64,000 nt of DNA from a virus. The stretch is taken from the IMG/VR virus record IMGVR_UViG_3300045541_000163; one strand, 5' to 3'. The notes below the pieces were generated by a model that saw only the letters and a program-made list of their open reading frames with translations, ran no database searches and was not told the DNA's origin. Shown here one piece after another: positions 10,199-22,908 of the stretch (within the stretch, counting starts at the first letter, position 1; each line of letters starts with the position of its first letter). The position numbers were made by a program, and so were the translations under genes.

Positions 10199-10834
10199 TT
10201 AATATGAGCCGCCATCTACGGTCATATCATCAATTCCTAAATTGGTTCTTGCTGCAGATGCAGTACTAGCTCCGGTGCCACCGTAAGCTATGCCAATGTT
10301 TGTTGCCGTCCAAGTTCCAGTTGTAACTGTACCCAAACTAGTAATTGCTGGACTAATTTTAGTAGGATCTAATGTACTGTTTGCGGTTAATATTTCATAA
10401 TAATTTGTGCCGTTTTTAGTTAGTTCCCAATGATCGTAAGTTTCGTTCCAATGAATTCCAACTGTAGGACTAGCTCCTCTATTTACTTCAACACCGGCGT
10501 CGACTATTGGTTGCCCTTGTGCATTCGAATTAAGAGTCAAAGTAACAATATTATCTTCGATTACTAAATTTTGAGTAGTTAAAGTAATGGTATCGCCAGT
10601 AACAATAATGTCGCCACCAACTGTTAAATTTCCGCTAGTTGTCAGGGTAGAAACAGATAAGTTTGTTATAGTGTTTTGACTGGCACTAGTAATACGACCG
10701 TCACTATCAACAGTAAATTGCGGAATCGCCGATTGTGATCCATAAGTTCCGGCCGAGACTCCAGTTGCGGCTAATTCATCGGCAGCTACAGCACCGGTGC
10801 CAATAGAATTTACATTTAATCGAGTTAAGGCCAT
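10199..10834 (-). CDS. Short fibre-type structural protein (211 aa) sharing modules with the 2613-aa protein
   Basis: MALTR N-terminus, GTYGS..FTVD..GRITSAS and GNLTV..DN..TL..AGVEVNRG modules, DGGSY C-terminus. Confidence 0.8.
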   Translation of the reverse strand: MALTRLNVNSIGTGAVAADELAATGVSAGTYGSQSAIPQFTVDSDGRITSASQNTITNLSVSTLTTSGNLTVGGDIIVTGDTITLTTQNLVIEDNIVTLTLNSNAQGQPIVDAGVEVNRGASPTVGIHWNETYDHWELTKNGTNYYEILTANSTLDPTKISPAITSLGTVTTGTWTATNIGIAYGGTGASTASAARTNLGIDDMTVDGGSY

Positions 10835-10855
10835 TTATTAATCCAATATTAGTAA

Positions 10856-10889
10856 TATTTATCAAAATGAAAGGGCCCCTGGGCCCTTT
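10856..10889 (-). terminator. Intrinsic terminator followed by late promoter GATAAATA
   Basis: AAAGGGCC/GGCCCTTT stem at 10870-10889, then TCATTTT and GATAAATA (10863-10856). Confidence 0.82.
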
Positions 10890-10914
10890 CTAAGTTGTAA
10901 TTATTTGTTAATAA

Positions 10915-13900
10915 TTATAGTGTTTTGGATCCACCAAGTTGAGCTTCTAAGCTTTCTACCTTGTCGTTAAGTTCCTTGATTGCTTCTACTAATAGAGCAA
11001 CAATCTTTTCGTACTTAACTGTCATGTAGTCTTCACCGCTCTTGCTGACTTCTTTGCCGTCTTTTACAGCAATGTCGAATGGAGCAGGAACAACTACTTC
11101 TGGTAGAACTGCCTTAACATCTTGCGCTAATAGACCAACTTGTGTTTCTTTGTTGGTATAACCAAAACTTTCAGCTACATCGTTGGCGTTGTAAGTAACA
11201 CCGTGTAGAGCCAATGTCTTAGCAAGAGCATTTTCGATTGGCTTGATGTTTTCCTTTAGACGCTTGTCTGAGTAGTAAGCTGTAATTTCGTTTGTAGCAC
11301 GAATTTGACCAGCTGTTCCAGAACCTGCTGTGCCAACGCCTAAGCTGTTAAACTGGACGTTGCTGGCTGTGCCAACTGCTTGTCCAATGCTAACTGCTGT
11401 ACCGCTAACACTAACACCAGTACCTGCGGTAACAACAGTAATATCAGCACTACCGTTAAAGCTTACGCCTTGAATGTTTCTAGCAGTAGCTAGTGTTGTT
11501 GCTGTAGTAGCATTGCCGCTTAGAGCAGCAGTAACAGTACCTGCTGTAAAGTTTCCGCTAGCGTCACGAGCAACGATTGTGCTGCCTGTATTAGCACTTG
11601 TAGCATTACTTGTTACAGTGAATGTAGCAGCACCAGAACCATTATATGTAGCAGAACCACTTAGGCCAGTTCCAGACACGCCCATTGTCAATGTGTCTAA
11701 GTTTGTGCCTAGTGTCTTGCCAGAAATTGTACTTGCAGCCAACTTGCTTACAGCAATAGCAGCACTAGCACTGATGTCACCGTTAACGATAGTACCGTCT
11801 GCAATCATTGTGCTTGTAACTGTACCGCTGTCGCCAGTTGTAACAATTGTACCAGTTGTTGCTGGAATAGTTAATACTGTACCAGTACCTACCGCAGCAG
11901 TTGGTACTAATTGTACTGTACCACTTGTGCTGCCTGGCAATGTCACACTACTGATACCTGTTAGTGCCAAGTTACCACTTGCGCGGTTTAAAGCAACTGA
12001 TGTTGTACCAATGTTAACACTGGAGTTACCTAATACTGAAGAAGGAATAGTTCCTGTTAGGTTAGCGGCTGTTAAGTTGGTTAGGTTAGCACCGGATACA
12101 GCGCCAAATGAGCCACTCCAAGTACCGCTGGTAATTGTACCGACGCTGGTTAAGCTAGAAGCAGTAACACCGGAACCTAATGTAGATGCACTCAAAACTG
12201 ATGTACCATTGATTTCGTATACCTTGCCGCTAGCAAGGTTGAAGTCTTCCGAAGAAGTCCAACCAACTGACGACCAAGTAATAGTCTTATCGGTGGCGCC
12301 TTTTAGAACAATACCGCCGCCGTTAGCAGTAACATCTGTTGGGCTTGCTACAGAACCTAGTTCGAATGTAATGTCATCAACGCTAACTACAGTGCTGTTA
12401 ATTGTAGTTGTTGTACCGTTAACAGTTAAGTCACCGCCAACTACTAAGTTTCCACTTGTGCTAAGAGCAGCAAAGTTGGCAGTACCAGTAAATGTTGGGC
12501 TAGCAGAAAGAACCATGCTACCAGTACCCGTCACCGAATTGGACAATGTAGTTCCAGCATAAGTCATTGTAGTGATAGTTGGACTTGTCAATGTCTTGTT
12601 AGTTAATGTTTGTGTGCCAGTTAATGTAGCAACAGTGCTGTCAATAGCAATAGTAACTGCTGAACTACCGTTGAAGCTTGTGCCGCTTAGACCTGTACCA
12701 ATTGTCAATGCATTGGTTGTGTTAGATGTAACAGTTGTACTACCGCCTAAACTTACAGCGTTACCGTTAATTGTAATGCTGCTATTTGCTAGTTTAGCAT
12801 TGGCAATACTACCAGCTAACATTGTATTAGTAACAGTGCCACTATCGCCAGTTGTAATCACTGTACCAGTTACATCAGGTAGAGTAATTGTGCGGTCTGC
12901 TGTGGGATCTGTAACTGTTAGAGTAGTTTCAAAATCGTTAGCAGTGGCACCTTCAAAAATAATGCTGCCATCGTTTAAGAACAAGCTAGTAACTGTAGGA
13001 CTACTAATTGTTGGAGCAGTTAGAGTCTTGTTAGTTAATGTTTGGCTACCTGTTAATGTAGCAACTGTAGAATCAATAGCAATAGTAACTGCGCCAGAAC
13101 CGTTATAGCTAGTACCGCTTAGACCTGTGCCAATTGTCAATGCATCTAAGTTTGTTCCTAATGCTTTGCCGCTGATTGTGCTGTTAGCTAGTTTAGCATT
13201 AGCAATGCTACCAGCCAACATTGTGTTAGTAACAGTACCAGTGTCGCCTGTTGTAACTACTGTACCGGTTAAATCTGGGAAAGTAATTGTACGATCGGCT
13301 GTTGGATCTGTAAATGCTAGTGTTGTTTCAAATGCGTCGGCAGTTGCACCTTCAATAGTAATGCTACCGTCGGTGATGGTTAAAGCACTAATATTTGGAG
13401 CAGTTAGTGTCTTATTGGTTAATGTTTGGCTACCTGTTAATGTAGCAACTGAACTATCGATTGCAATTGTAACTGCTGAGCCGCCATCGAAGCTTGTACC
13501 GCTTAGACCAGTGCCAATTGTCAATGCGTTAGTTGTGCTGGCTTTAACGGTAATGTTAGCAGAACCATCAAAGCTTACACCGTTGATGTTACGAGCAGTT
13601 TGTAGTGTAGTTGCTGTACTTGCGTTACCCGTTAGCGCACCGGTAAAGCCTGTAGAAGTAACACTGGTTAGACCTGCTAGTGTTGTTGCTGTTCCGCCTA
13701 AGCTGATTGCTGTAGAGCCAACTGTAACAGAGCTGTTAGTTAGACTTGAGTTACCAATATTGCTTAGTGTGTTGCTTGAACCGCTGATTGTCTTGTTGGT
13801 TAAAGTTTCTGTACCGGCTAGAGTGGCCAATGTACCAGTTGTCGGTAATGTTACGTTGGTAGCACCAGTTGCTGTTAATGTTGTAGCAAAAGCGCCGCTA

Positions 13901-14880
13901 GTTGTAAAGTTGCCACCTAGAGTAATTGTCTTGCCGCTGTTGTTTACACCAGTACCGCCATAAGCAGCGCCAATAATTGTACCTTGCCATGTACCAGTAC
14001 CAATTGTACCAACACTTGTTAAACTAGAACCAGTAACACCAGAACCCAGTGTAGTTGCGTTTAATACGCTTGTGCCGCCAATGTAAAATGCTTTGCCGCT
14101 GGCCAAGTCTAAGTGTTCGCTTGATGTCCAAGCGTCTGATGCATCAACCCAATTGAATGTTTTGTCTGTTGTGCCTTTTAGTGTAAGACCGCCGCCATCA
14201 GCAGTTGCATCATCTGGACTGGCTGTATCACCTAATACTAAATTCTTGTCGTCAACTGCTACTGTTGTGCTGTTGATTGTGGTTGTTGTACCGTTAACTG
14301 TTAGGTTACCAGTAATAGTTGCGTTGCCACCTACACTGATATTGCCCGAAGTTGTTAAACTTGTAGCACTAGCAACACCTAAAGTTGGTGTTACAAGCGT
14401 TGGACTGTTAGCAAATACTAAAGCGCCTGTACCAGTTTCGTCTGTTACTGCGGATGCTAAGTTAGCACTGCTTGGTGTAGCTAAAAATGTAGCAACACCT
14501 GTACCTAAACCACTAATACCTGTGCTTACTGGAAGACCAGTAGCATTAGTTAGTGTCAATGCACTCGGTGTACCTAAATTTGGAGTTGTTAAAACTGGAC
14601 TTGTTAAAGTCTTATTTGTTAATGTTTGTGTATCTGTTAAAGTAACGACAGTATTATCAATAGCAATAGTACCACTGCTGTATGTAATACCACTACCACC
14701 ACTCAGGTGTGCATCAACTCTTGCATCACGATAGCTAACTTCAACTACAGAGCCATCGCCTTTTTCCATGAAAACTTTGCCGTCTGCGGTATTGAGTGCT
14801 AATTCGCCTAAAGCTAGCTGTGCTGCTGTAGGTGTTGCGCCTGTTGTACTACTGCGCTTATGTAAAATTGTATTTGCCAT
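10915..14880 (-). CDS. Long tail fibre (1321 aa) with C-terminal intramolecular chaperone (peptidase S74-type)
   Basis: N-terminal ILHKRSS...[13 protein letters not shown] anchor, internal duplicated modules, C-terminal [11 protein letters not shown]...[17 protein letters not shown] coiled coil. Confidence 0.88.
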
Positions 14881-14896
14881 TTTAATTCCTTTTTAT

Positions 14897-14990
14897 GGGT
14901 CAGGATTATTTATATAATCGCCCTGCGGGTCAGGTTAACTCAGTTAACGCCCTACGGGTCAGGTTGGGGAGTTGCCTCCCCAACGCCCTA
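14897..14990 (-). repeat. Tandem array of three hairpins with constant base AGGGC...CUGACCC and variable apical stems
   Basis: Plus strand GGGTCAG at 14897, 14927 and 14956, and GCCCT at 14920, 14949 and 14985, each pair flanking a different perfect inverted repeat. Confidence 0.92.
14907..14914 (-). promoter_or_regulatory. Perfect T4-type late promoter TATAAATA inside the last hairpin of the array
   Basis: Minus strand TATAAATA at 14914-14907, 26 nt upstream of the fibre ATG; AAGGA RBS in between. Confidence 0.8.
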
Positions 14991-17900
14991 TTAGAAACTA
15001 CCTCCATCAATGCTGATATCAGGATCTAATGTTGTACCTAAATCAACTGCAACAGGATCTCCATTGGCATCAAGGAATCTGACTGCATTTGCAACATTGT
15101 CCCACTTGATTTGAGCATCACCAAGATAAATTGTATTGCCAGCTAGGTATAGATCTCTCCAACGCTTGCTTGCACTACCTAAGTCGAATGTGATGTCAGT
15201 TGCAGGAATAATGTTACTGTTTAGAGTACCATTGCCCATCAATGTCTTAACACGAGTGTCGGTGTAGTAGAAGTTTGAACTACCTTCAGCAATGTCGTCT
15301 GTGCTGTTTGGTGCTGGACTAAACACGCCTGTTGAGAAGTCAATAACTTCAACAATTTCACCGTTTTGTGGAGTACCACCTAGTGTTAGTGTTGTGCCAC
15401 TTACGCTGAATGTGTCGCCACCTTGTGGAACACCAGATACTGTAACGATCAAGAAATCGCGACCTTCTGGAGCGTTGTTTAGTGTAAAGCTAGAACTTGT
15501 ACCGTTAGCAGTAAAACGTTGACGACGCATTTGGAAGCCGCCGCTGATACTTGGTTCCCAAGAACTTGTAGTTGCGTTCCAACGAATTGTGTCACCGTCT
15601 TGCAATCCAGTTAAGTCAACATCACCGATATCGTCTAAGATATGGTTGCTAATGTCAGTAACTTGACCTGTAACGTTGCCAGTTAAGTCGCCAACAAATC
15701 CAGTTGAAGCTGTAATTGTTGTACCATTCACTGTAGTAAATGTGCCAGCAGCAGCGGTTGATGCACCAATTACTGTGCCATCGATGTCACCGCCGTTAAT
15801 GTCAACTGTAGCAAATGTACTTGTACCGCTACTTGTTACGTTACCAGTCAAGTCGCCAGTTACATTACCAGTTACGTTACCAGTCAAGTCGCCAGTTACG
15901 TTACCAGTCACATTACCAGTTAAGTCACCAGTTACATTACCTGTTACATCACCAGTCAAGTCGCCAGTTACATCACCAGTTACATCACCAGTCAAGTCGC
16001 CTGTGAAGCCTGTTGTAGCTGTGATTGTTGTACCAGTTACTGCGGCTGCTACTGTAGCACCAATTATAGTTCCGTCAATGTCACCACCGTTGATGTCAAC
16101 TGTAGCAAATGTGCTTGTACCGCTACTTGTTACATTACCTGTCAAGTCACCTGTTACGTTACCAGTTACATTACCAGTTACGTCGCCAGTTACATCACCA
16201 GTTAAGTCACCAGTTACGTCGCCAGTTAGGTCACCAGTAAAGCCTGTTGTAGCTGTGATTGTTGTACCAGTTACTGCGGCTGCTACTGTAGCGCCAATTA
16301 TAGTTCCGTCAATATCGCCGCCATTAATGTCAACGGTAGCAAATGTGCTTGTACCAGAGCTTGTAATGTTACCAGTTACATCACCAGTTAAGTTACCTGT
16401 TACATTACCGGTTACGTCGCCAGTTACATCACCAGTTAAGTCACCAGTTACGTCGCCAGTTAGGTCACCAGTAAAGCCTGTTGTAGCTGTGATTGTTGTA
16501 CCAGTTACAGCAGCAGCGGTTGTTGCACCAATTACGGTGCCGTCGATGTTACCACCGTTGATATCAACGGTAGCAAATGTGCTTGTACCAGAACTTGTAA
16601 TATTACCAGTTACATCACCAGTTAGGTTACCAGTTACATTACCTGTTACATCGCCGGTTACATCACCAGTTACGTCGCCAGTCAGGTCACCAGTAAAGCC
16701 TGTTGTAGCTGTGATTGTTGTACCAGTTACGGCAGCAGCGGTTGTTGCACCAATTACAGTGCCGTCAATATTACCGCCGTTGATATCAACAGTAGCAAAT
16801 GTACTTGTACCACTGCTTGTAATATTACCAGTTACATCACCAGTTAGGTTACCAGTTACATTACCAGTTACATTACCAGTTAAATCACCAGTTACATCGC
16901 CAGTTACATCACCAGTTACATCGCCAGTTAGGTCGCCTGTAAAGCCAGTAGTAGCTGTGATTGTTGTACCAGTTACTGCTGCTGCACTTGTAGCACCAAT
17001 TACTGTGCCGTCGATGTTGCCGCCGTTAATGTCAACTGTAGCAAATGTGCTTGTGCCACTGCTTGTAATATTACCAGTTACGTCGCCAGTTAAGTTACCT
17101 GTTACGTTACCAGTTACATCACCAGTTAAGTCACCAGTCACATCACCAGTCACATCACCAGTTAAGTCGCCAGTGAAGCCTGTTGTGGCTGTGATTGTTG
17201 TACCAGTTACGGCAGCCGGTGTAGTACCACCGATTACTGTACCATCGATATTACCGCCGTTAATGTCAACTGTAGCAAATGTGCTTGTGCCACTGCTTGT
17301 AATATTACCAGTTACGTCGCCAGTTAAGTTACCTGTTACGTTACCAGTTACATCACCAGTTACATCACCAGTCAAGTCACCAGTTACATCGCCTGTCAAA
17401 TCACCAGTGAAGCCTGTTGTAGCTGTGATTGTTGATGCGTTGATATCGGCATCGGCTGTTCCAACCAAGAAGTTCCAAGTATCTGTAGTTTCATCCCAAA
17501 CTAACTTAGCATCATCTGATGTACCTCTGTCGACTTCAATACCTGCTGTTCCGGCTGTTACGCCTGCGCCAGCTTCACCCTTGTTTAGAGTGATAATGTT
17601 GTCGTTGATTTCTGTGTTAGTTGTTTGTAAGCTTGTTAATGTACCTTGTACAGTTAAGTTACCACCAATAGATACATCACCTGTTGTAGTAATATCAACA
17701 ACACCAGCAATATTTCCAGTAATTGTTAGATCATTTCCAATTGTAACATCGCTTGGTAAACCAATTGTAATTGTTTGACCGCTTACGCTTGTTTCAATTT
17801 CATTGGCTGTACCAGAAAGTGTTAATGTATCTGTAGCAAAACTTACTGTGCTTGGGCCACCTGTATCGCCATCGATAGTCAAGCTATCAATAGCATTTAA

Positions 17901-20900
17901 GCTGTCATCAACATACTTTTTAGTAGCAGCATCTTGATTGCTTGTTGGATCAACAACATTACTAATTGTGCTTGTACCCGCATCAATTATACCGCTTGCT
18001 GGATTTAGAACAATGTCACCACTTGTTGTAGAAATAGTGTCAGTGCTGAAATCCATATTAGCAATAGAACCAGTTGTTGCTGTAATGTCGCCAACTGTTA
18101 GCGCATCACTTGCGCTGTCGTATGTCATACCAGCATCGTCGACTAATGCGCCGCCTGCACCTACTACAACAACACGACCTGCTGTTAAGCTACTTGCTGA
18201 TAAGTTTGTAGCATCTACATCAGTAGCAGTAACATTAGTTACGCTTAATGTGTCAGTAGCACTGTCAAATGTGAAGTTTGCATCATCGCTTAATAAACCT
18301 GCATTACCGGCAAATGTTACACGAGTTGCTGTTAGTGCGCTGTTAGTGATAGTAGCAGCAGTTAAACTTGTTGTTGCATCAACAGTTGTAAATGTACCGG
18401 CAGCGGCAGTTGTTGCACCAATTACTGTGCCATCAACGTTACCGCCATTGATGTCAACTGTAGCGAATGTGCTTGTGCCACTACTTGTAATGTTACCAGT
18501 TACATCGCCAGTTAAGTTACCTGTTACATTGCCGGTTACATTACCAGTTACGTTACCAGTTACATCACCAGTTACATCGCCAGTTAGATCACCAGTTACA
18601 TCGCCAGTTAGATCACCAGTAAATCCAGTTGAAGCTGTAATTGTTGTACCGTTAACGGTTGTGAATGTACCAGCTGCGGCAGTTGTAGCACCGATTACAG
18701 TGCCGTCAATATTACCGCCATTAATGTCGACTGTAGCAAATGTGCTTATGCCTGCACTTGTTACATCACCAGTTAAGTCGCCAGTTACGTTACCAGTTAC
18801 ATTACCAGTTACATCACCAGTCAAGTCGCCAGTTACGTCACCAGTCAAGTCGCCAGTAAATCCAGTCGAAGCTGTAATTGTTGTACCGTTAACGGTTGTG
18901 AATGTACCAGCTGCGGCAGTTGTAGCACCAATGGTAGTACCGTCAATATTACCGCCATTGATATCTACAGTAGCAAAAGTGCTTATACCTGCACTTGTTA
19001 CATCACCAGTTAAGTCGCCGGTTACGTTACCAGTTACATTACCTGTTAGGTCACCAGTTACATCGCCAGTTACGTCACCAGTTAAGTCACCTGTGAAGCC
19101 AGTTGAAGCTGTAATTGTTGTACCGTTAACGGTTGTGAATGTACCAGCAGCAGCAGTTGTAGCACCAATTGTAGTACCGTCAATATTGCCGCCGTTAATA
19201 TCAATTGTAGCAAAAGTGCTTATGCCTGCACTTGTTACATCGCCGGTTAAGTCGCCGGTTACGTTACCTGTTACATTACCAGTTAAGTCGCCGGTTACAT
19301 CGCCAGTTACATCGCCAGTTAGGTCACCTGTGAAGCCAGTTGAAGCTGTAATTGTTGTACCGGTTATGGCTGCGGCACTTGTAGCACCAATTACTGTACC
19401 ATCGATATTACCGCCGTTAATGTCAACTGTAGCAAAAGTACTTGTACCACTGCTTGTAATATTACCGGTTACATCACCAGTTAGGTTACCTGTTACGTTA
19501 CCAGTTACGTCACCTGTTAAATCAGCAGTTACATTTGGTACTGTCAGTGTACTTGTACCGCTGTTGAATGTTAAATCGCTGCTGTCGCTTAGTAAACCAT
19601 TTGTGCTAGCAAATGTTACACGACCAGAAGTTAATGTGCCAACTGTTACACCGTTAACAGTTGTTAAACTATCGGCAGTAATATCTTCGGCACCAATATC
19701 GCCGGCGTTGAATGCACCATTTGCGTCACGACTTACAATAGTTCCAGCTGTATTTGATGGAGTAGCATCACTAGTTAATGTTACAACACCGTAGTTTGTG
19801 TTTACGCTAATACCAACACCGCTGGTGCTTAAACTTGTTACACCATCGTTTTGAATTGTAATAGCATCAGTTGTTGGGTCTGTACTTAAACTAATAGCTG
19901 TACCACCAACAAGTGTTAGTGTATCATCAGGAGTATCGGCTGCAACTGTTGTTTGGCCGCTGACTGCAACATACTTGAATGCGTTTAGACCAGCATTGGT
20001 AATTGTAATTTCTTTTGTAGTATTGTCTGTTGTTAGTGTAACACCAGTACCGGCTACAAGAGTCAATGTTTCAGTATTAGAAGCCGCTGTAACAGTTGTT
20101 TCGCCTGCGACAGCAATGCTCTTGAAGATCATCTGATCACTACCCTTGTCATCGTTAGTGATTGTTGGAGTAGAACCTTCACCGCCTGTGTTGCTAATTT
20201 GAATACCAACACCTGCAATTAGATCTTCGACATAGTCACCGGTTGTATCTGTACCTAGTGCTACACTGTCTGGTTCGATGGTAACTGTTAATGTTTCATT
20301 GCTGCTACCGTCAATTGTTACGCTACCGCTTAGGTCACCTGCTAATGTAATTGTACGAGCAGTTTCCCATGTACTAGCTGTGCTAGCATTACCGACCAAA
20401 TCAGCTGTAATTGTACCTGCTGTAAAGTCACCGCTGCCGTCACGAGCAACAATAGTACCAGCTGTATTAGCAGAAGTTGCATCACTGGTAATTGTAATAG
20501 CTCCAGTACTTGAGTTGATGCTTAGACCTGTACCGCTAACCGCAGCACTAGTTACACCGTCGTTAGTAAATGTAATTGTGTCTGTTAAAGCATCAGTGGT
20601 GATTGTTAAACCTGTGCTACCAGCAAAAGTTACAGTGTCACTGGCTTGGTCAGCACTAACAGTAGTTTGGCCGCTGACTGCAAAATTACTGTAAGCTTCG
20701 GCACCTGGAACACTGAAACTTAGTGTATCTGCGCCGTCGTCGTATGTTACGCTTACGTTTGTGTGAGTAGCACTAGTAATCATTAGTGCCGCAGCATCAC
20801 GAACTGCTTCGTCAAAGTCTGTAACTGCTGTGCTTGGGATGGCGATTGAAGCGATACCAGCTGCGGTTAAACGACCTTTGCTATCAACTGTGAATGTTGC

Positions 20901-22832
20901 TACTTCGTCCACAGCACCGTAGCTGCCGGCTGTTACGCCTGTGTTGCTTAGTGTTGTAGTAATTTGAATATTAGCACTGCCGTCAAATGATGCTAGACCA
21001 GTTACATCGCTTATTAGTTCAATGTCACGAGCTGTAACAAACTTACCATCTAAATTGGCTTCCAATGTTGCCTTAGTACCAGTGAATACTTCACTGTTGT
21101 TGCTGGCACTCTTTAATAGTTTGAATACACCGTCTGTTGTGTCGTAACCAAAGAAGCCAGTGCGTGTAGCAGTGTCATAATACTTGAATTCAATACCACG
21201 GCCTTTACCGTCATTACTGTTATATGTTCCTTGACCAACTGTCAATACGGGATCAACAATGGTTGTAACTGTTGAATCAACTTGTACAGTTGTACCTAAA
21301 ACTGTTAGATTACCGTCAACTGTTAAGTTAGTGTTAATAGTCATGCTACCTGTAACAATAGCATCGCCGTTAACGTCAAGTGCAGCGGCCGGTGTTGTAT
21401 CATTAATACCAACAAAGTTGTTTGTTGGATCGACATACAATACACCGCCGTCAACATCTAGGAAGCCTGTTACTGTTACATCAGTAAAGTCAGCAGCAGC
21501 AGGTGTGCTAGAACCAATTACTGTACCGTCAATATTACCGCCATTGATATCAACTGTAGCAAATGTGCTTGTACCGGAACTTGTTATGTCACCAGTTACA
21601 TCACCAACTAAGTCACCGTTGAATTGTGAATTAGCTGTAATTGTTGTACCAGTAATAGCTTGTGGAATTGTGCCGCCAATGATTGTATCATCGATAGTGC
21701 CGCCGTTTACATCAATATTACTAAATGTGCTTGTACCAGTGCTGGTAATATTACCAGTTATATCACCAGTTACATCACCAACCAAGTCTGCTGTGATAAC
21801 GCCTGCAGCGAAGTCACCGCTGGCATCGCGAGCAACAATAGTGCCGCTTGTGTTTAATGCAGTGGCATCACTGCTAATAGTGATAGAACCAGTTGATTGG
21901 TTAATACTTAAACCAGTTCCACTTACAGCGGCGCTAGTTACGCCATCGTTAGTAAATGTGATAATATCAGTAGTTGCATTTGTTGTGATAGTTAAGCCTG
22001 TGCTACCAGCAAAAGTAACTGTATCAGTTTCTGTATCTGCAACAACAGTTGTCTGTCCACTAACTGCAATTCTGTCAAATTTGTTTGGATTATTTAGGGT
22101 AGAACTTATTAAACCGGTAGTATCATCATATGTGAATGTAATACTTGCGTGTGTGCCGCCTGTTAAGCTTGCTGCGGCGGTGTCTTCTACAGCTTCTTGC
22201 CAGTCTGTAATCTGTGTGCTAGGAATAGCAATACTAATGTTTGATGCGCTAGTAATGCGACCTTTAGCGTCGACGGTGAACTCGCCTACTTGAGTTGCAC
22301 TGCCGTATGTTTGAGCTGTAACACCTGTGTTGACTAGTGTTGTTGTAATGGTAATATCAGAACTAGCGTCAAAACTAGCTGTACCTGTTGCGTCGCCGCC
22401 TAGACTAATGTTTCGAGCATTAACTAATGCGCCGTCTAGGTCAGCAGTAACTATATTAGCACTAAAGTTACCAGAACCATCTCTAATAACTAGAGTATTT
22501 GAAGTATTATTACTGGTTGCGTTAGTACCAACATCTAATGTATCTGTTGCAGCATCAGTGGTAACTACAATACCGCCTGATCCTGAAACTGTTAAAGTAG
22601 AAGCAGCAGCATCAGCAACAATGTTACTTTGCCCGCTAACTGCTACGGTTTTAAAGTTATAAACAGCAGCAATAGAGTTGTCAACATAAAGCTTGTTTGC
22701 TGCTTCTGTGTTTGCTGTCGGAGTACCAACAGTAACAGTCTTAGATGTTAGTGTAAATGTACTGTTAATCTCGTTGCCCGTAATTAAGAAACTTGGGTCA
22801 ATCGAGATATTTTTAATTTTGGTCAATGCCAT
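14991..22832 (-). CDS. Giant repetitive fibre/virion structural protein (2613 aa)
   Basis: Intact ORF with AGGAG RBS; 14 STF..(D)INGG modules; runs of (D/N)(V/L)TG; modules shared with neighbouring fibre genes. Confidence 0.88.
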   Translation of the reverse strand: MALTKIKNISIDPSFLITGNEINSTFTLTSKTVTVGTPTANTEAANKLYVDNSIAAVYNFKTVAVSGQSNIVADAAASTLTVSGSGGIVVTTDAATDTLDVGTNATSNNTSNTLVIRDGSGNFSANIVTADLDGALVNARNISLGGDATGTASFDASSDITITTTLVNTGVTAQTYGSATQVGEFTVDAKGRITSASNISIAIPSTQITDWQEAVEDTAAASLTGGTHASITFTYDDTTGLISSTLNNPNKFDRIAVSGQTTVVADTETDTVTFAGSTGLTITTNATTDIITFTNDGVTSAAVSGTGLSINQSTGSITISSDATALNTSGTIVARDASGDFAAGVITADLVGDVTGDITGNITSTGTSTFSNIDVNGGTIDDTIIGGTIPQAITGTTITANSQFNGDLVGDVTGDITSSGTSTFATVDINGGNIDGTVIGSSTPAAADFTDVTVTGFLDVDGGVLYVDPTNNFVGINDTTPAAALDVNGDAIVTGSMTINTNLTVDGNLTVLGTTVQVDSTVTTIVDPVLTVGQGTYNSNDGKGRGIEFKYYDTATRTGFFGYDTTDGVFKLLKSASNNSEVFTGTKATLEANLDGKFVTARDIELISDVTGLASFDGSANIQITTTLSNTGVTAGSYGAVDEVATFTVDSKGRLTAAGIASIAIPSTAVTDFDEAVRDAAALMITSATHTNVSVTYDDGADTLSFSVPGAEAYSNFAVSGQTTVSADQASDTVTFAGSTGLTITTDALTDTITFTNDGVTSAAVSGTGLSINSSTGAITITSDATSANTAGTIVARDGSGDFTAGTITADLVGNASTASTWETARTITLAGDLSGSVTIDGSSNETLTVTIEPDSVALGTDTTGDYVEDLIAGVGIQISNTGGEGSTPTITNDDKGSDQMIFKSIAVAGETTVTAASNTETLTLVAGTGVTLTTDNTTKEITITNAGLNAFKYVAVSGQTTVAADTPDDTLTLVGGTAISLSTDPTTDAITIQNDGVTSLSTSGVGISVNTNYGVVTLTSDATPSNTAGTIVSRDANGAFNAGDIGAEDITADSLTTVNGVTVGTLTSGRVTFASTNGLLSDSSDLTFNSGTSTLTVPNVTADLTGDVTGNVTGNLTGDVTGNITSSGTSTFATVDINGGNIDGTVIGATSAAAITGTTITASTGFTGDLTGDVTGDVTGDLTGNVTGNVTGDLTGDVTSAGISTFATIDINGGNIDGTTIGATTAAAGTFTTVNGTTITASTGFTGDLTGDVTGDVTGDLTGNVTGNVTGDLTGDVTSAGISTFATVDINGGNIDGTTIGATTAAAGTFTTVNGTTITASTGFTGDLTGDVTGDLTGDVTGNVTGNVTGDLTGDVTSAGISTFATVDINGGNIDGTVIGATTAAAGTFTTVNGTTITASTGFTGDLTGDVTGDLTGDVTGDVTGNVTGNVTGNVTGNLTGDVTGNITSSGTSTFATVDINGGNVDGTVIGATTAAAGTFTTVDATTSLTAATITNSALTATRVTFAGNAGLLSDDANFTFDSATDTLSVTNVTATDVDATNLSASSLTAGRVVVVGAGGALVDDAGMTYDSASDALTVGDITATTGSIANMDFSTDTISTTSGDIVLNPASGIIDAGTSTISNVVDPTSNQDAATKKYVDDSLNAIDSLTIDGDTGGPSTVSFATDTLTLSGTANEIETSVSGQTITIGLPSDVTIGNDLTITGNIAGVVDITTTGDVSIGGNLTVQGTLTSLQTTNTEINDNIITLNKGEAGAGVTAGTAGIEVDRGTSDDAKLVWDETTDTWNFLVGTADADINASTITATTGFTGDLTGDVTGDLTGDVTGDVTGNVTGNLTGDVTGNITSSGTSTFATVDINGGNIDGTVIGGTTPAAVTGTTITATTGFTGDLTGDVTGDVTGDLTGDVTGNVTGNLTGDVTGNITSSGTSTFATVDINGGNIDGTVIGATSAAAVTGTTITATTGFTGDLTGDVTGDVTGDVTGDLTGNVTGNVTGNLTGDVTGNITSSGTSTFATVDINGGNIDGTVIGATTAAAVTGTTITATTGFTGDLTGDVTGDVTGDVTGNVTGNLTGDVTGNITSSGTSTFATVDINGGNIDGTVIGATTAAAVTGTTITATTGFTGDLTGDVTGDLTGDVTGDVTGNVTGNLTGDVTGNITSSGTSTFATVDINGGDIDGTIIGATVAAAVTGTTITATTGFTGDLTGDVTGDLTGDVTGDVTGNVTGNVTGDLTGNVTSSGTSTFATVDINGGDIDGTIIGATVAAAVTGTTITATTGFTGDLTGDVTGDVTGDLTGDVTGNVTGDLTGNVTGNVTGDLTGNVTGNVTGDLTGNVTSSGTSTFATVDINGGDIDGTVIGASTAAAGTFTTVNGTTITASTGFVGDLTGNVTGQVTDISNHILDDIGDVDLTGLQDGDTIRWNATTSSWEPSISGGFQMRRQRFTANGTSSSFTLNNAPEGRDFLIVTVSGVPQGGDTFSVSGTTLTLGGTPQNGEIVEVIDFSTGVFSPAPNSTDDIAEGSSNFYYTDTRVKTLMGNGTLNSNIIPATDITFDLGSASKRWRDLYLAGNTIYLGDAQIKWDNVANAVRFLDANGDPVAVDLGTTLDPDISIDGGSF
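15676..17440 (-). repeat. Coding repeat block: seven STFATVDINGG modules with intervening runs of 8-14 12-bp (D/N)(V/L)TG units
   Basis: Counted from the translation; synonymously diverged 12-bp units such as gttacatcacca and gttacgtcgcca. Boundaries approximate. Confidence 0.9.
18390..19530 (-). repeat. Coding repeat block: five modules of the same family, intervening runs of 8-11 tetrapeptides
   Basis: Counted from the translation. Boundaries approximate. Confidence 0.9.
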
Positions 22833-22873: not shown

Positions 22874-22908
22874 TATTTACCAGAATTTGAAAATAGCTGT
22901 TATTTACT
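22874..22908 (-). promoter_or_regulatory. Two tandem late-promoter boxes (AGTAAATA, GGTAAATA) for the 2613-aa gene
   Basis: Boxes at 22908-22901 and 22881-22874. Confidence 0.6.

What the first reader, a model, noticed from the sequence alone, without database searches (positions are those of the whole stretch)
14897..14990. Three-unit hairpin array with invariant base and variable stems between two fibre genes
Seen, read as mRNA: UAGGGC[GUUGGGGAG-GCAA-CUCCCCAAC]CUGACCC, GUAGGGC[GUUAAC-UGA-GUUAAC]CUGACCC, GCAGGGC[GAUUAU-AUAA-AUAAUC]CUGACCC, then the SD of the next gene. The apical stems differ in sequence but all pair perfectly, which amounts to covariation within one locus. The constant part would form GGG/CCC plus a C/CUGA asymmetric internal loop. 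The first unit has a GNRA loop (supporting the minus strand) and begins at the TAA-TAG double stop; the third holds a perfect TATAAATA promoter. No U tract follows any unit. Inference: three tandem binding sites for one protein (translational or antitermination control, or processing sites that set fibre stoichiometry). I do not recognise this as a described motif.
Basis: partly seen in the sequence, partly recalled or inferred. Interest (0 to 1): 0.75.

Follow-up and report, generated by a model that had tools for sequence, protein, structure and literature searches.

The report
Modular hairpin leader of phage fibre gene
The three hairpins are real copies of a previously uncatalogued small RNA module that a lineage of uncultured giant aquatic T4-like phages keeps, in one to three tandem copies, just in front of the ribosome-binding site of one tail-fibre gene, most likely as a docking site for a still unknown regulator.

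Summary
Observation confirmed. Window 14988..14897 (- strand) holds three units of GGGCG-[perfect variable hairpin]-CCUGACCC joined by 3-nt linkers. They lie between the stop of a 2613-aa fibre gene and the SD/ATG of a 1321-aa gp37-like distal fibre gene.

The same module occurs in 52 distinct arrays (69 distinct units; 1, 2 or 3 copies) from IMG/VR and metagenome contigs. In 48 of the 50 arrays with a readable start it directly precedes a gene starting MA(N/T)xI.HKRSS. The last unit ends 5-12 nt before the SD in 47 of 48.

Upper stems covary strongly: 99.6% of cells pair against 78% in shuffles. The base helix and the G5:C1' pair also show compensatory changes. G3, C4, U3', G4', A5' and C6' never vary. 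34 of 52 tetraloops are GNRA/UNCG on the mRNA strand and none on the other strand.

Two complete 344- and 383-kb phage genomes carry it at this one locus only. Cultured relatives, 33 prokaryote-genome descriptor hits and Rfam 15 have nothing like it.

Single-unit versions sit in promoter-driven leaders with no fibre gene immediately upstream, so the element belongs to the downstream gene's leader.

Best reading, unproven: an RNA operator for a trans-acting factor that controls translation or stability of the fibre mRNA. The scan had flagged a look-alike in another genome (e1-5652929, unchecked).

The parts
14956..14988 (-). Unit 1: GGGCG + 8-bp G/C-rich upper stem + GCAA loop + CCUGACCC. It starts 2 nt after the TAA stop and overlaps the second in-frame stop TAG (14990..14988).
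   Evidence: 31.7 bits, E 5e-6. Positional homologues with a GGGG/CCCC stem are in L019, L055, L076, L115 and L148.
14927..14952 (-). Unit 2: GGGCG-UUAAC-UGA-GUUAA-CCUGACCC. It is preceded by the 3-nt linker GUA (14955..14953).
   Evidence: 30.8 bits. An identical apical hairpin is found in L055, L076 and L079.
14897..14923 (-). Unit 3: GGGCG-AUUAU-AUAA-AUAAU-CCUGACCC. It is preceded by the linker GCA (14926..14924). It contains TATAAATA at 14914..14907.
   Evidence: (30.1 bits)
14878..14896 (-). Spacer AUAAAA, Shine-Dalgarno AGGA (14890..14887) and ATG (14880..14878) of the downstream gene. The last unit ends 6 nt before the SD.
   Evidence: Across the family the spacing is 5-12 nt in 47 of 48 arrays.
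10915..14880 (-). Regulated gene: a 1321-aa distal long-tail-fibre protein. It has a gp37-type N-terminus ([21 protein letters not shown]) and a C-terminal Peptidase_S74 intramolecular chaperone domain.
   Evidence: the N-terminus matches gp37 of K3, CC31 and PG7
14991..22832 (-). Upstream 2613-aa fibre or structural protein ending ..IDGGSF*. It is probably co-transcribed with the array. The nearest upstream TAAATA box is at 22879..22874.
14993..15000 (-). UAGUUUCU, the last codons of the upstream ORF. In the MFE fold it pairs with AGGAAUUA (14890..14883) and encloses the whole array and the SD. This is a weak lead only.
   Evidence: window z = -2.0; family mean z = -0.8; absent in several arrays

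Best explanation
This is a lineage-specific, cis-acting RNA module in the leader of the mRNA for the gp37-like distal tail-fibre protein.

Anatomy of one unit:
- a 3-bp G:C base helix;
- a conserved asymmetric internal loop with C on the 5' side and YUGA on the 3' side. It is probably a lone C:G pair flanked by a bulged A and a bulged YU, and UGA may form a U-turn;
- a G:C pair;
- an upper helix of free sequence and length (3-10 bp), capped mostly by a stable GNRA or UUCG tetraloop.

One to three units are strung together by exactly 3 nt. The last unit sits 5-12 nt upstream of the Shine-Dalgarno sequence.

The most likely function is recognition. The invariant loop and its flanking pairs would be the docking site (operator) for a trans-acting factor. 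That factor is most probably a protein of the phage, less probably the host ribosome or an RNase. Binding next to the ribosome-binding site would set how much distal fibre is translated and/or how long the mRNA lasts.

Extra units are found mainly where the gene is read through from an upstream fibre gene. There, terminating ribosomes would unfold the first unit.

Shown here: the structure, its conservation, its strand, its position, and its one-gene-per-genome specificity. Inferred: that a factor binds, and that the output is translational.
For: 1) Homologues with the same context. Searches give 52 distinct arrays and 69 distinct units. In 48 of the 50 arrays with a readable start they directly precede genes starting MA(N/T/S)xI.(H/L)K(R/Q)S.

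2) Covariation. 99.6% of cells pair against 78.1% in shuffles. There are 59 double-change cells against 17.8 expected, reached by 0 of 500 shuffles. Slid controls give a score of 0.10 or less against 0.436.

3) Compensatory changes in the constant part. GAGCG..CYUGACUC occurs in five distinct units. AGGCG and AGGCA pair with ..UUGACCU. GGGCA pairs with ..UCUGACCC. G3, C4, U3', G4', A5' and C6' never change, although the flanking N-terminal protein region is only 34-50% identical in the more distant phages.

4) Strand. 34 of 52 tetraloops are GNRA/UNCG when read on the mRNA strand, and 0 of 52 on the other strand. There are 8 G.U against 3 A.C.

5) Fixed geometry. The linker is 3 nt in 49 of 49 junctions. 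The last unit lies 5-12 nt from the AGG in 47 of 48 arrays.

6) Specificity. cmsearch over 302 kb of loci hits only these sites. Two complete genomes of 383 and 344 kb have it at one locus only, and each has exactly one gene with this N-terminus. None of the 33 prokaryote-genome loci hit by the descriptor has the hairpins, against 44 of 73 metagenome loci.

7) Single units lie in leaders behind a TAAATA box and a separate 5' hairpin. In the L131-L140 group an intrinsic terminator, not a fibre gene, lies just upstream. So the unit serves the downstream gene.

8) There is a sequence preference in the two upper pairs next to the loop, U:A or A:U and then Y:R. This is as expected for a recognition surface rather than a mere stabilising hairpin.
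Against: - No partner has been identified.
- RegA (PF01818) and ToxN (PF13958) were not detected in the two complete genomes, but those searches had no positive control.
- No experimental data exist and no cultured phage carries the element, so neither binding nor a regulatory output is shown.
- Nearest-neighbour energies slightly favour the antisense fold, by 1.1 kcal/mol on average. The strand call therefore rests on loops and position.
- The invariant loop could equally be a self-contained tertiary or RNase-recognition motif.
Confidence: 0.42

Rival explanations
1. Passive mRNA stabiliser or insulator. The stable hairpins protect the 5' end of the fibre mRNA from 5'-end-dependent decay in promoter-driven leaders, and the 3' end of the upstream cistron. 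They would also keep the ribosome-binding site from pairing with the very long upstream ORF. No specific factor is needed.
For: Loops are the classic stabilising GNRA/UUCG tetraloops. In some promoter-driven leaders the first unit starts 8-11 nt after the TAAATA box, so close to the expected RNA 5' end (L299, L349). T4 is known to use structured translation initiation regions (TIRs) and leaders (PMC3014915).
Against: A stabiliser needs no invariant asymmetric loop, no invariant 3-nt linker and no fixed distance to the SD. Promoter-driven leaders already have a separate, freely varying 5' hairpin in front of the unit.
Confidence: 0.18
2. Endonucleolytic processing signal, a form of mRNA punctuation. 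A host or phage RNase would cut at the conserved loop. This uncouples the two fibre cistrons and leaves hairpins at the new ends.
For: The intercistronic position in 31 of the 40 multi-unit arrays. There is an analogy with the T7 RNase III R-sites, from established knowledge.
Against: The minimal units have only 7 bp, far below an RNase III substrate. Units also occur in monocistronic leaders where nothing needs to be separated. There are no AU-rich single-stranded RNase E-type sites in the constant part.
Confidence: 0.12
3. Translational coupling device. The array compacts the spacer so that the last codons of the upstream fibre ORF pair with the SD/AUG region of the next gene. A terminating ribosome then opens this helix.
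For: The window MFE closes the array with UAGUUUCU x AGGAAUUA. In the S-Y-stop clade, GUUAUUA pairs with UGAUAAC, UAAUAAC or AAUAGC between the SD and the AUG. The duplex is stronger than shuffles in 7 of 31 arrays.
Against: The mean z is only -0.8. The helix is absent in several arrays (L237, L274, L307). It cannot apply to the promoter-driven leaders that lack an upstream ORF, and it does not explain the invariant loop.
Confidence: 0.07
4. Co-transcriptional element acting on RNA polymerase, giving put-like processive antitermination or a pause. It would help transcription through the 3-6 kb fibre gene.
For: It is a leader position in front of a very long gene. The hairpins have conserved internal bulges, as in HK022 put (from memory, not tested).
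Against: There is no sequence or architectural match to put or other antiterminator RNAs in Rfam. The tight spacing is to the SD rather than to a promoter or terminator.
Confidence: 0.06
5. Small-ligand or ion sensor (tandem mini-riboswitch), or a direct ribosome-docking structure.
For: The architecture resembles tandem bulged stem-loops placed next to an SD, such as the nadA (NAD+-I) or guanidine-II designs (from memory). An SD-overlapping CCU-N4-AGG mini hairpin follows most 1- and 2-unit arrays.
Against: A 21-nt unit with 5 unpaired bases is very small for a pocket. A fibre gene is an odd target for metabolite control. There is no Rfam riboswitch match.
Confidence: 0.06
6. DNA-level element. 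It would be a recombination or structure-specific site (PeSL-like cassette, attC- or REP-like hairpin) that promotes exchange of fibre modules.
For: It lies exactly at a module boundary of host-range genes. Identical duplicated units in L173, L325 and L349 show local recombination or slippage. PeSLs are known in T4-type phages (PMC4122927).
Against: It is a single locus per 340-380 kb genome rather than a dispersed repeat. There is no promoter-terminator composite. The RNA-type tetraloops are strand-specific. It sits at a constant distance from an SD.
Confidence: 0.04

Closest known systems
Phage translational operators (T4 gene 43 hairpin, gene 32 pseudoknot, RegA sites; MS2/PP7 coat-protein hairpins with a bulged A). 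Review: PMC3014915.
   Same: A small structured RNA immediately 5' of, or at, a ribosome-binding site of a phage gene. The conserved unpaired or bulged bases are presented by a helix whose sequence is otherwise free.
   Different: There is no sequence relation. The module is repeated 1-3 times with a fixed 3-nt linker. It lies upstream of the SD rather than over it. The partner is unknown. The target is a late structural (fibre) gene.
Inhibitory or enhancing TIR hairpins of T4 late genes (e, soc, I-TevI, 25, 38; PMC3014915).
   Same: RNA structure in leaders of T4-type late genes. In this window a TATAAATA box lies inside unit 3, as late promoters lie inside the gene e and I-TevI hairpins.
   Different: Those hairpins contain the SD or AUG and have no conserved loop motif. 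Here the SD is outside the unit, and the box in unit 3 is not conserved in relatives.
PeSL promoter/stem-loop cassettes of T4-type phages (PMC2839356, PMC4122927).
   Same: Conserved intergenic motif with a stem-loop followed by an SD and a start codon in T4-type genomes.
   Different: PeSLs are many-copy, sigma70-promoter-containing, found in hyperplastic early regions, and are thought to act at the DNA level. This element is single-locus, late, has no sigma70 promoter, and shows RNA-type covariation.
Box C/D kink-turn (box D CUGA next to a terminal stem).
   Same: CUGA directly abuts a short G:C helix, as box D abuts the terminal stem. The weak top Rfam hit was a C/D snoRNA (15.9 bits, far below the 47-bit cut-off).
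   Different: The opposite strand is an invariant GGGCG with no GA, so the tandem sheared G.A pairs that define a K-turn cannot form.
Other fibre-gene leader RNAs found by this scan in large aquatic myoviruses (notes e1-5354931 and e1-5659771, Immutovirus-related).
   Same: One structured leader per genome, in front of one particular tail-fibre gene of a large aquatic myovirus.
   Different: It is a different motif. Flavobacterium phage immuto_2-6A (MW353175) has no match to this model or descriptor, and a sequence look-up found no shared words.

Membership tests
Any Rfam 15 family | Score at or above the family's gathering cut-off, or at least a low E-value | tested here: not met
   There was no hit in the region at gathering threshold. 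The best permissive hits score 10-16 bits at E 0.7-9.5, far below the cut-offs. There was nothing at E<=1 in five homologous loci.
Kink-turn / box C/D | Tandem sheared G.A / A.G pairs (GA on both strands) next to a 3-nt bulge | tested here: not met
   The 5' strand is GGGCG (or GAGCG, AGGCG, AGGCA, GGGCA) in all 69 units and has no GA opposite the UGA.
Hammerhead ribozyme | CUGANGA and GAAA core strands around a three-way junction | tested here: not met
   CUGA is followed directly by CCC. There is no NGA and no GAAA core strand, single units are simple hairpins, and there is no Rfam hit.
Intrinsic terminator | G+C-rich hairpin followed by a U tract | tested here: not met
   No unit is followed by a U run. 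The genuine terminators of this phage do have one, for example after the 1321-aa gene.
RNase III processing site (T7 R-site type) | About two helical turns of dsRNA, often with an internal loop | tested here: not met
   22 of the 69 units have only a 3-bp upper helix, giving 7 bp in all including the lone C:G.
PeSL cassette | Many copies per genome; stem-loop upstream of a sigma70-type -35/-10 promoter | tested here: not met
   There is one locus per complete genome. No -35/-10 promoter lies between the units and the SD. The definition comes from PMC4122927.
Group II intron domain V | Fixed hairpin of about 34 nt with an AGC triad, a 2-nt 3' bulge and a GNRA loop, inside an intron | tested here: not met
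   The resemblance is only superficial (G/AGC at the base, 2-nt 3' bulge, GNRA). Length varies from 21 to 35 nt, the units are tandem, no intron domains are nearby, and there is no Rfam Intron_gpII hit.
Type III toxin-antitoxin antitoxin array (ToxI-like) | Near-identical tandem RNA repeats next to a ToxN-family toxin gene | tested here: inconclusive
   Units are diverged and positionally conserved across phages. The neighbours are fibre genes. PF13958 was not found in the two complete genomes, but that search had no positive control.
New family proposed here (fibre-leader GGGCG/CYUGACCC module) | 3-bp base helix + C/YUGA loop + G:C + variable capped helix, 5-12 nt upstream of the SD of a gp37-like gene | tested here: met
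   All three window units score 30-32 bits against the family model R2, and the context matches.

The most novel reading that the evidence does not exclude
The module is the operator of an autogenous or assembly-coupled feedback loop. A phage protein of the fibre pathway would bind the C/YUGA loop. Candidates are the trimeric fibre itself, its chaperone, or a dedicated small RNA-binding protein. Binding would gate translation of the distal, host-recognising fibre. Copy number (1-3, changing by unit duplication) would tune cooperativity. That would be a new class of RNA-protein switch controlling virion stoichiometry or host-range gene expression in giant phages.
Probability: 0.15. Interest if true: 0.8.

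Novelty: new variant of a known kind. Interest (0 to 1): 0.58.

Why it matters
Structured leaders and operators are known for early and replication genes of T4. No conserved RNA element has been described for tail-fibre genes, which decide host range.

This module is very small and modular. It is supported by unusually clean covariation and is confined to one gene per 340-380 kb genome. It is therefore a tractable handle on late-gene post-transcriptional control in uncultured giant aquatic phages.

Its invariant loop is a ready bait for finding a new RNA-binding factor. With the two other fibre-leader motifs flagged by this scan in other lineages, it suggests that RNA-level control of one fibre gene is a recurring solution in large aquatic myoviruses.

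Tried and rejected
- **Own-genome search:** no genome is held for this window.
- **blastn against cultured phages:** the window region and a single-unit leader gave no match.
- **Cultured relatives by capsid:** Vibrio phage 2.275.O, Sinorhizobium phage Phosso and Pectobacterium phage CBB gave no credible model hit.
- **Immutovirus (MW353175):** no hit, so the leaders reported by earlier scan notes are a different motif.
- **First junction scan of IMG/VR:** mostly chance hits in GC-rich coding DNA. Only about 11 of 67 were real.
- **Two-unit descriptor in 185,579 prokaryote species genomes:** 33 loci, none with hairpins. All were chance or coding repeats, so there is no host clue.
- **Literature:** searches for the constant heptamer and for a fibre-gene RNA motif found nothing relevant.
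- **Families considered and rejected:** K-turn, hammerhead, terminator, RNase III site, group II domain V, PeSL, DGR target hairpin, and pairing of CUGACCC with the phage's large Polynucleobacter-1-type RNA. No GGGUCAG lies in that RNA. The single-unit leaders of the L131-L140 group have no fibre gene just upstream.
- **Long-range helix (upstream ORF end x SD):** inconsistent across the family.
- **Thermodynamic strand test:** uninformative, slightly favouring the antisense.
- **RegA and ToxN family searches in the two complete genomes:** empty, but without a positive control.
- **Not attempted:** phylogenetic profiling of the roughly 500 genes per genome to find the partner. The lineage-specific gene set would be too large to be informative.

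Full report
**1. The observation**

On the minus strand the window reads as follows. The 2613-aa ORF (14991..22832) ends in TAA-TAG. Three units follow at 14988..14956, 14952..14927 and 14923..14897. Each unit is GGGCG, a perfect hairpin, then CCUGACCC. The units are joined by GUA and GCA. After them come AUAAAA, AGGA and, at 14880, the ATG of a 1321-aa ORF.

- The descriptor GGGC-N6-36-CTGACC matches nowhere else in the 64 kb.
- The 121-nt region folds better than shuffles on both strands, z = -3.8 and -3.0.
- Rfam 15 has nothing here, either at gathering threshold or at E<=10. The best hits score 10-16 bits.

**2. The phage and the flanking genes**

The window encodes T4-type head, portal, baseplate and gp46-like proteins. 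Its major capsid protein is 66-70% identical to those of cultured 350-470 kb jumbo myoviruses: Vibrio phage 2.275.O, Sinorhizobium phage Phosso, Serratia phage BF and Pectobacterium phage CBB.

Both flanking ORFs are fibre or structural proteins. The downstream protein has a C-terminal Peptidase_S74 intramolecular chaperone domain. Its N-terminus is of the kind found in gp37, the distal long-tail-fibre subunit, of K3, CC31 and PG7.

A terminator and a new TAAATA box follow the downstream gene. The nearest box upstream of the 2613-aa gene is at 22879..22874. The two fibre genes are therefore probably one late transcription unit, with the array in the middle.

**3. Homologues**

- A scan of IMG/VR for the inter-unit junction gave mostly chance hits. 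About eleven loci had the same layout: stop, units, SD, ATGGCAA.
- A protein-guided search with the N-terminal alignment A1 added three-, two- and one-unit versions.
- Further pattern scans, including a 24-base two-unit descriptor, added 24 IMG/VR and 73 metagenome loci. Of the 73 metagenome loci, 44 have both hairpins. The other 29 have none and are GC-rich (58-74%) chance hits.
- The same descriptor hit 33 loci in 185,579 prokaryote species genomes, and none has hairpins.

In total there are 52 distinct arrays: 12 with one unit, 31 with two and 9 with three. They contain 69 distinct units. One of the single-unit entries, L159, is a GC-rich chance hit that slipped through the filter.

In 48 of the 50 arrays with a readable start, the downstream gene starts M-(A/S)-x-x-I-x-(H/L)-K-(R/Q)-S. 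One exception is L159. In the other, L322, a 38-aa ORF lies between the array and that gene.

**4. Structure and covariation**

A covariance model built from six units found 48 hits in 302 kb of loci. All were the expected sites and none lay elsewhere.

- On the resulting alignment, 99.6% of cells pair against 78% in shuffles. There are 59 cells with changes on both sides, reached by 0 of 500 shuffles. The score collapses when partners are slid.
- The constant part also shows compensatory change. GAGCG..CYUGACUC occurs in five distinct units. AGGCG and AGGCA pair with ..UUGACCU. GGGCA pairs with ..UCUGACCC.
- Each unit therefore closes on itself through G1-G3 : C6'-C8', and G5 pairs with C1'.
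- C4, U3', G4' and A5' never vary. RNAfold pairs C4 with G4', which leaves a bulged A and a bulged YU.
- These changes argue against nested folds or inter-unit CCC-NNN-GGG folds.

**5. Strand**

Of 52 tetraloops, 34 are GNRA or UNCG on the mRNA strand and none on the complement. There are 8 G.U pairs against 3 A.C. Nearest-neighbour energies do not help. They favour the antisense by about 1 kcal/mol, because a U.G pair can be added in the constant part. Together with the fixed position before an SD, I take the sense RNA as the active form.

**6. Position and copy number**

- The linker is exactly 3 nt in 49 of 49 junctions (R-Y-H).
- The last unit ends 5-12 nt before the AGG of the SD in 47 of 48 arrays, and the AGG lies 6-13 nt before the ATG.
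- All eight complete three-unit arrays, and 23 of 31 two-unit arrays, follow the stop of a fibre ORF ending (I/V)DGG(S/T)(F/Y).
- Eight of eleven single units, and a few two-unit arrays, instead follow a TAAATA box, usually with an additional covarying 5' hairpin.
- In the L131-L140 single-unit group, the upstream neighbour is an intrinsic terminator.

The unit thus belongs to the leader of the downstream gene. More copies occur where ribosomes arrive from upstream. Identical neighbouring units in L173, L325 and L349 show that copy number changes by unit duplication.

**7. Specificity**

- Two complete genomes (383 kb, and 344 kb with terminal repeats) have the module at one locus only. Each has exactly one gene with this N-terminus.
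- Contigs with single units have capsid proteins 75-76% identical to the window's, so they belong to the same lineage.
- Cultured relatives have no credible hit, and blastn against 50,697 phage records finds nothing.
- In the window, the refined model run with filters off finds only the three units.

**8. Mechanism**

The following features fit a recognition site next to a ribosome-binding site better than they fit a passive hairpin:
- the invariant asymmetric loop;
- the sequence preference in the two adjoining pairs;
- the free apical helix with stabilising loops;
- the rigid linker;
- the tight spacing to the SD.

I therefore favour an operator for a trans-acting factor that controls translation and/or stability of the gp37-like mRNA (0.42). 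The rivals are a passive stabiliser or insulator, a processing signal, a coupling helix, an RNA polymerase-directed element, a small sensor, and a DNA-level site. They are listed with their evidence in the rival explanations.

The possible coupling helix between the last upstream codons and the SD region is present in the window (z = -2.0) and in one clade. It is inconsistent overall, with mean z = -0.8.

The TATAAATA in unit 3 is real. It sits 26 nt before the ATG, close to the 24 and 25 nt seen at two other late genes of this window. It is unique to this window among the nine three-unit arrays. The exact octamer is also not enriched in the window: 3 copies against 5.5 expected. If it is active, it would give a transcript lacking all three units.

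**9. Comparison with known elements**

- There is no Rfam match and no relevant literature hit.
- The element works most like phage translational operators and T4 translation initiation region (TIR) structures (PMC3014915). It shares no sequence or architecture with them.
- It is not a PeSL (PMC4122927), a K-turn, a hammerhead, a terminator, an RNase III site or group II domain V (see the membership tests).
- Earlier notes of this scan report other fibre-gene leader RNAs in Immutovirus-related phages. Immutovirus lacks this module, so those are different motifs.
- An unchecked note (e1-5652929) describes what looks like the same element in another genome.

**10. Verdict**

This is a real, well-supported, uncatalogued RNA module of unknown partner. 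It is a new variant of the known kind 'structured phage mRNA leader or operator'. Interest is moderate to high for RNA and phage biologists. The function remains to be shown.

Noticed in passing
window 14907-14914 (-): TATAAATA lies inside the apical stem and loop of unit 3, 26 nt before the ATG. That is close to the box-to-ATG distance of the late genes starting at 10834 (24 nt) and 10160 (25 nt). A transcript started here would lack all three units. The box is not conserved in the other three-unit arrays.
   Followed up: partly
window 14991-15010 (-) and 10199-10220 (-); loci L081-L130: Fibre proteins end in (I/V)DGG(S/T)(F/Y)*, and the next gene starts MA(N/T/D).. with a gp37-type N-terminus. 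This junction recurs in many unrelated, often GC-rich, phage lineages. There the two genes simply abut with no hairpin array.
   Followed up: partly
L131-L140, L152, L153, L157-L167, L178, L183 (about 20-45 nt upstream of the single unit): Promoter-driven single-unit leaders carry an extra hairpin between the TAAATA box and the unit. Its stem covaries (AGCGAU/AUCGUU, ACGAU/AUCGU, CACUAU/AUAGUG, AUGAU/AUCAU), but it lacks the GGGCG/CYUGACCC base.
   Followed up: no
most one- and two-unit leaders, e.g. L069:1460-1500 (-), L167: A CCU-N4-AGG mini hairpin overlaps the Shine-Dalgarno sequence (CCUAAAUAGG, CCUAUAUAGG, CCUUUUUAGG). Its loop varies while CCU and AGG are fixed. In L148 the CCU of the last unit's own base helix could pair with the SD instead.
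   Followed up: partly
L322:454-690 (-): Here a TATAAATA box, a 5' hairpin and two units are followed by a 38-aa ORF (MYTQPLTPPSEIDYL..). Only after that ORF comes the gp37-like gene.
   Followed up: partly
L173, L325, L349: Two adjacent units are identical in sequence. This shows recent tandem duplication of unit plus linker, that is, copy-number turnover.
   Followed up: partly
L122, L123, L144, L145, L154; and L086, L108, L109, L116, L118, L147 (upstream of the match at about 1400-1500): gp37-like genes of other phage lineages have their own, different, conserved leaders of about 70-90 nt. One type has GCCCGUACAA..CUCUAUAG..CCUCC. The other has AAAGAAAUAAAUACAUG..AUCGUAAC. This suggests further fibre-leader RNA motifs.
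   Followed up: no
window 37045-37189 (-): Rfam Polynucleobacter-1 RNA hit (49.9 bits). It was already examined by earlier notes of this scan, and it contains no complement of CUGACCC.
   Followed up: partly
window 10835-10914 (-): A G+C-rich hairpin with a U tract (AAAGGGCCCAGGGGCCCUUUCAUUUU) is followed at once by a GATAAATA box. This gives a compact terminator-promoter junction between the 1321-aa fibre gene and the 211-aa fibre-like gene.
   Followed up: no
L357, L388 (prokaryote genome contigs): The two-unit flank descriptor hits several times in a row in some bacterial contigs without any hairpin. These look like periodic coding repeats, and they are a reminder that the flanks alone are not diagnostic.
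   Followed up: partly
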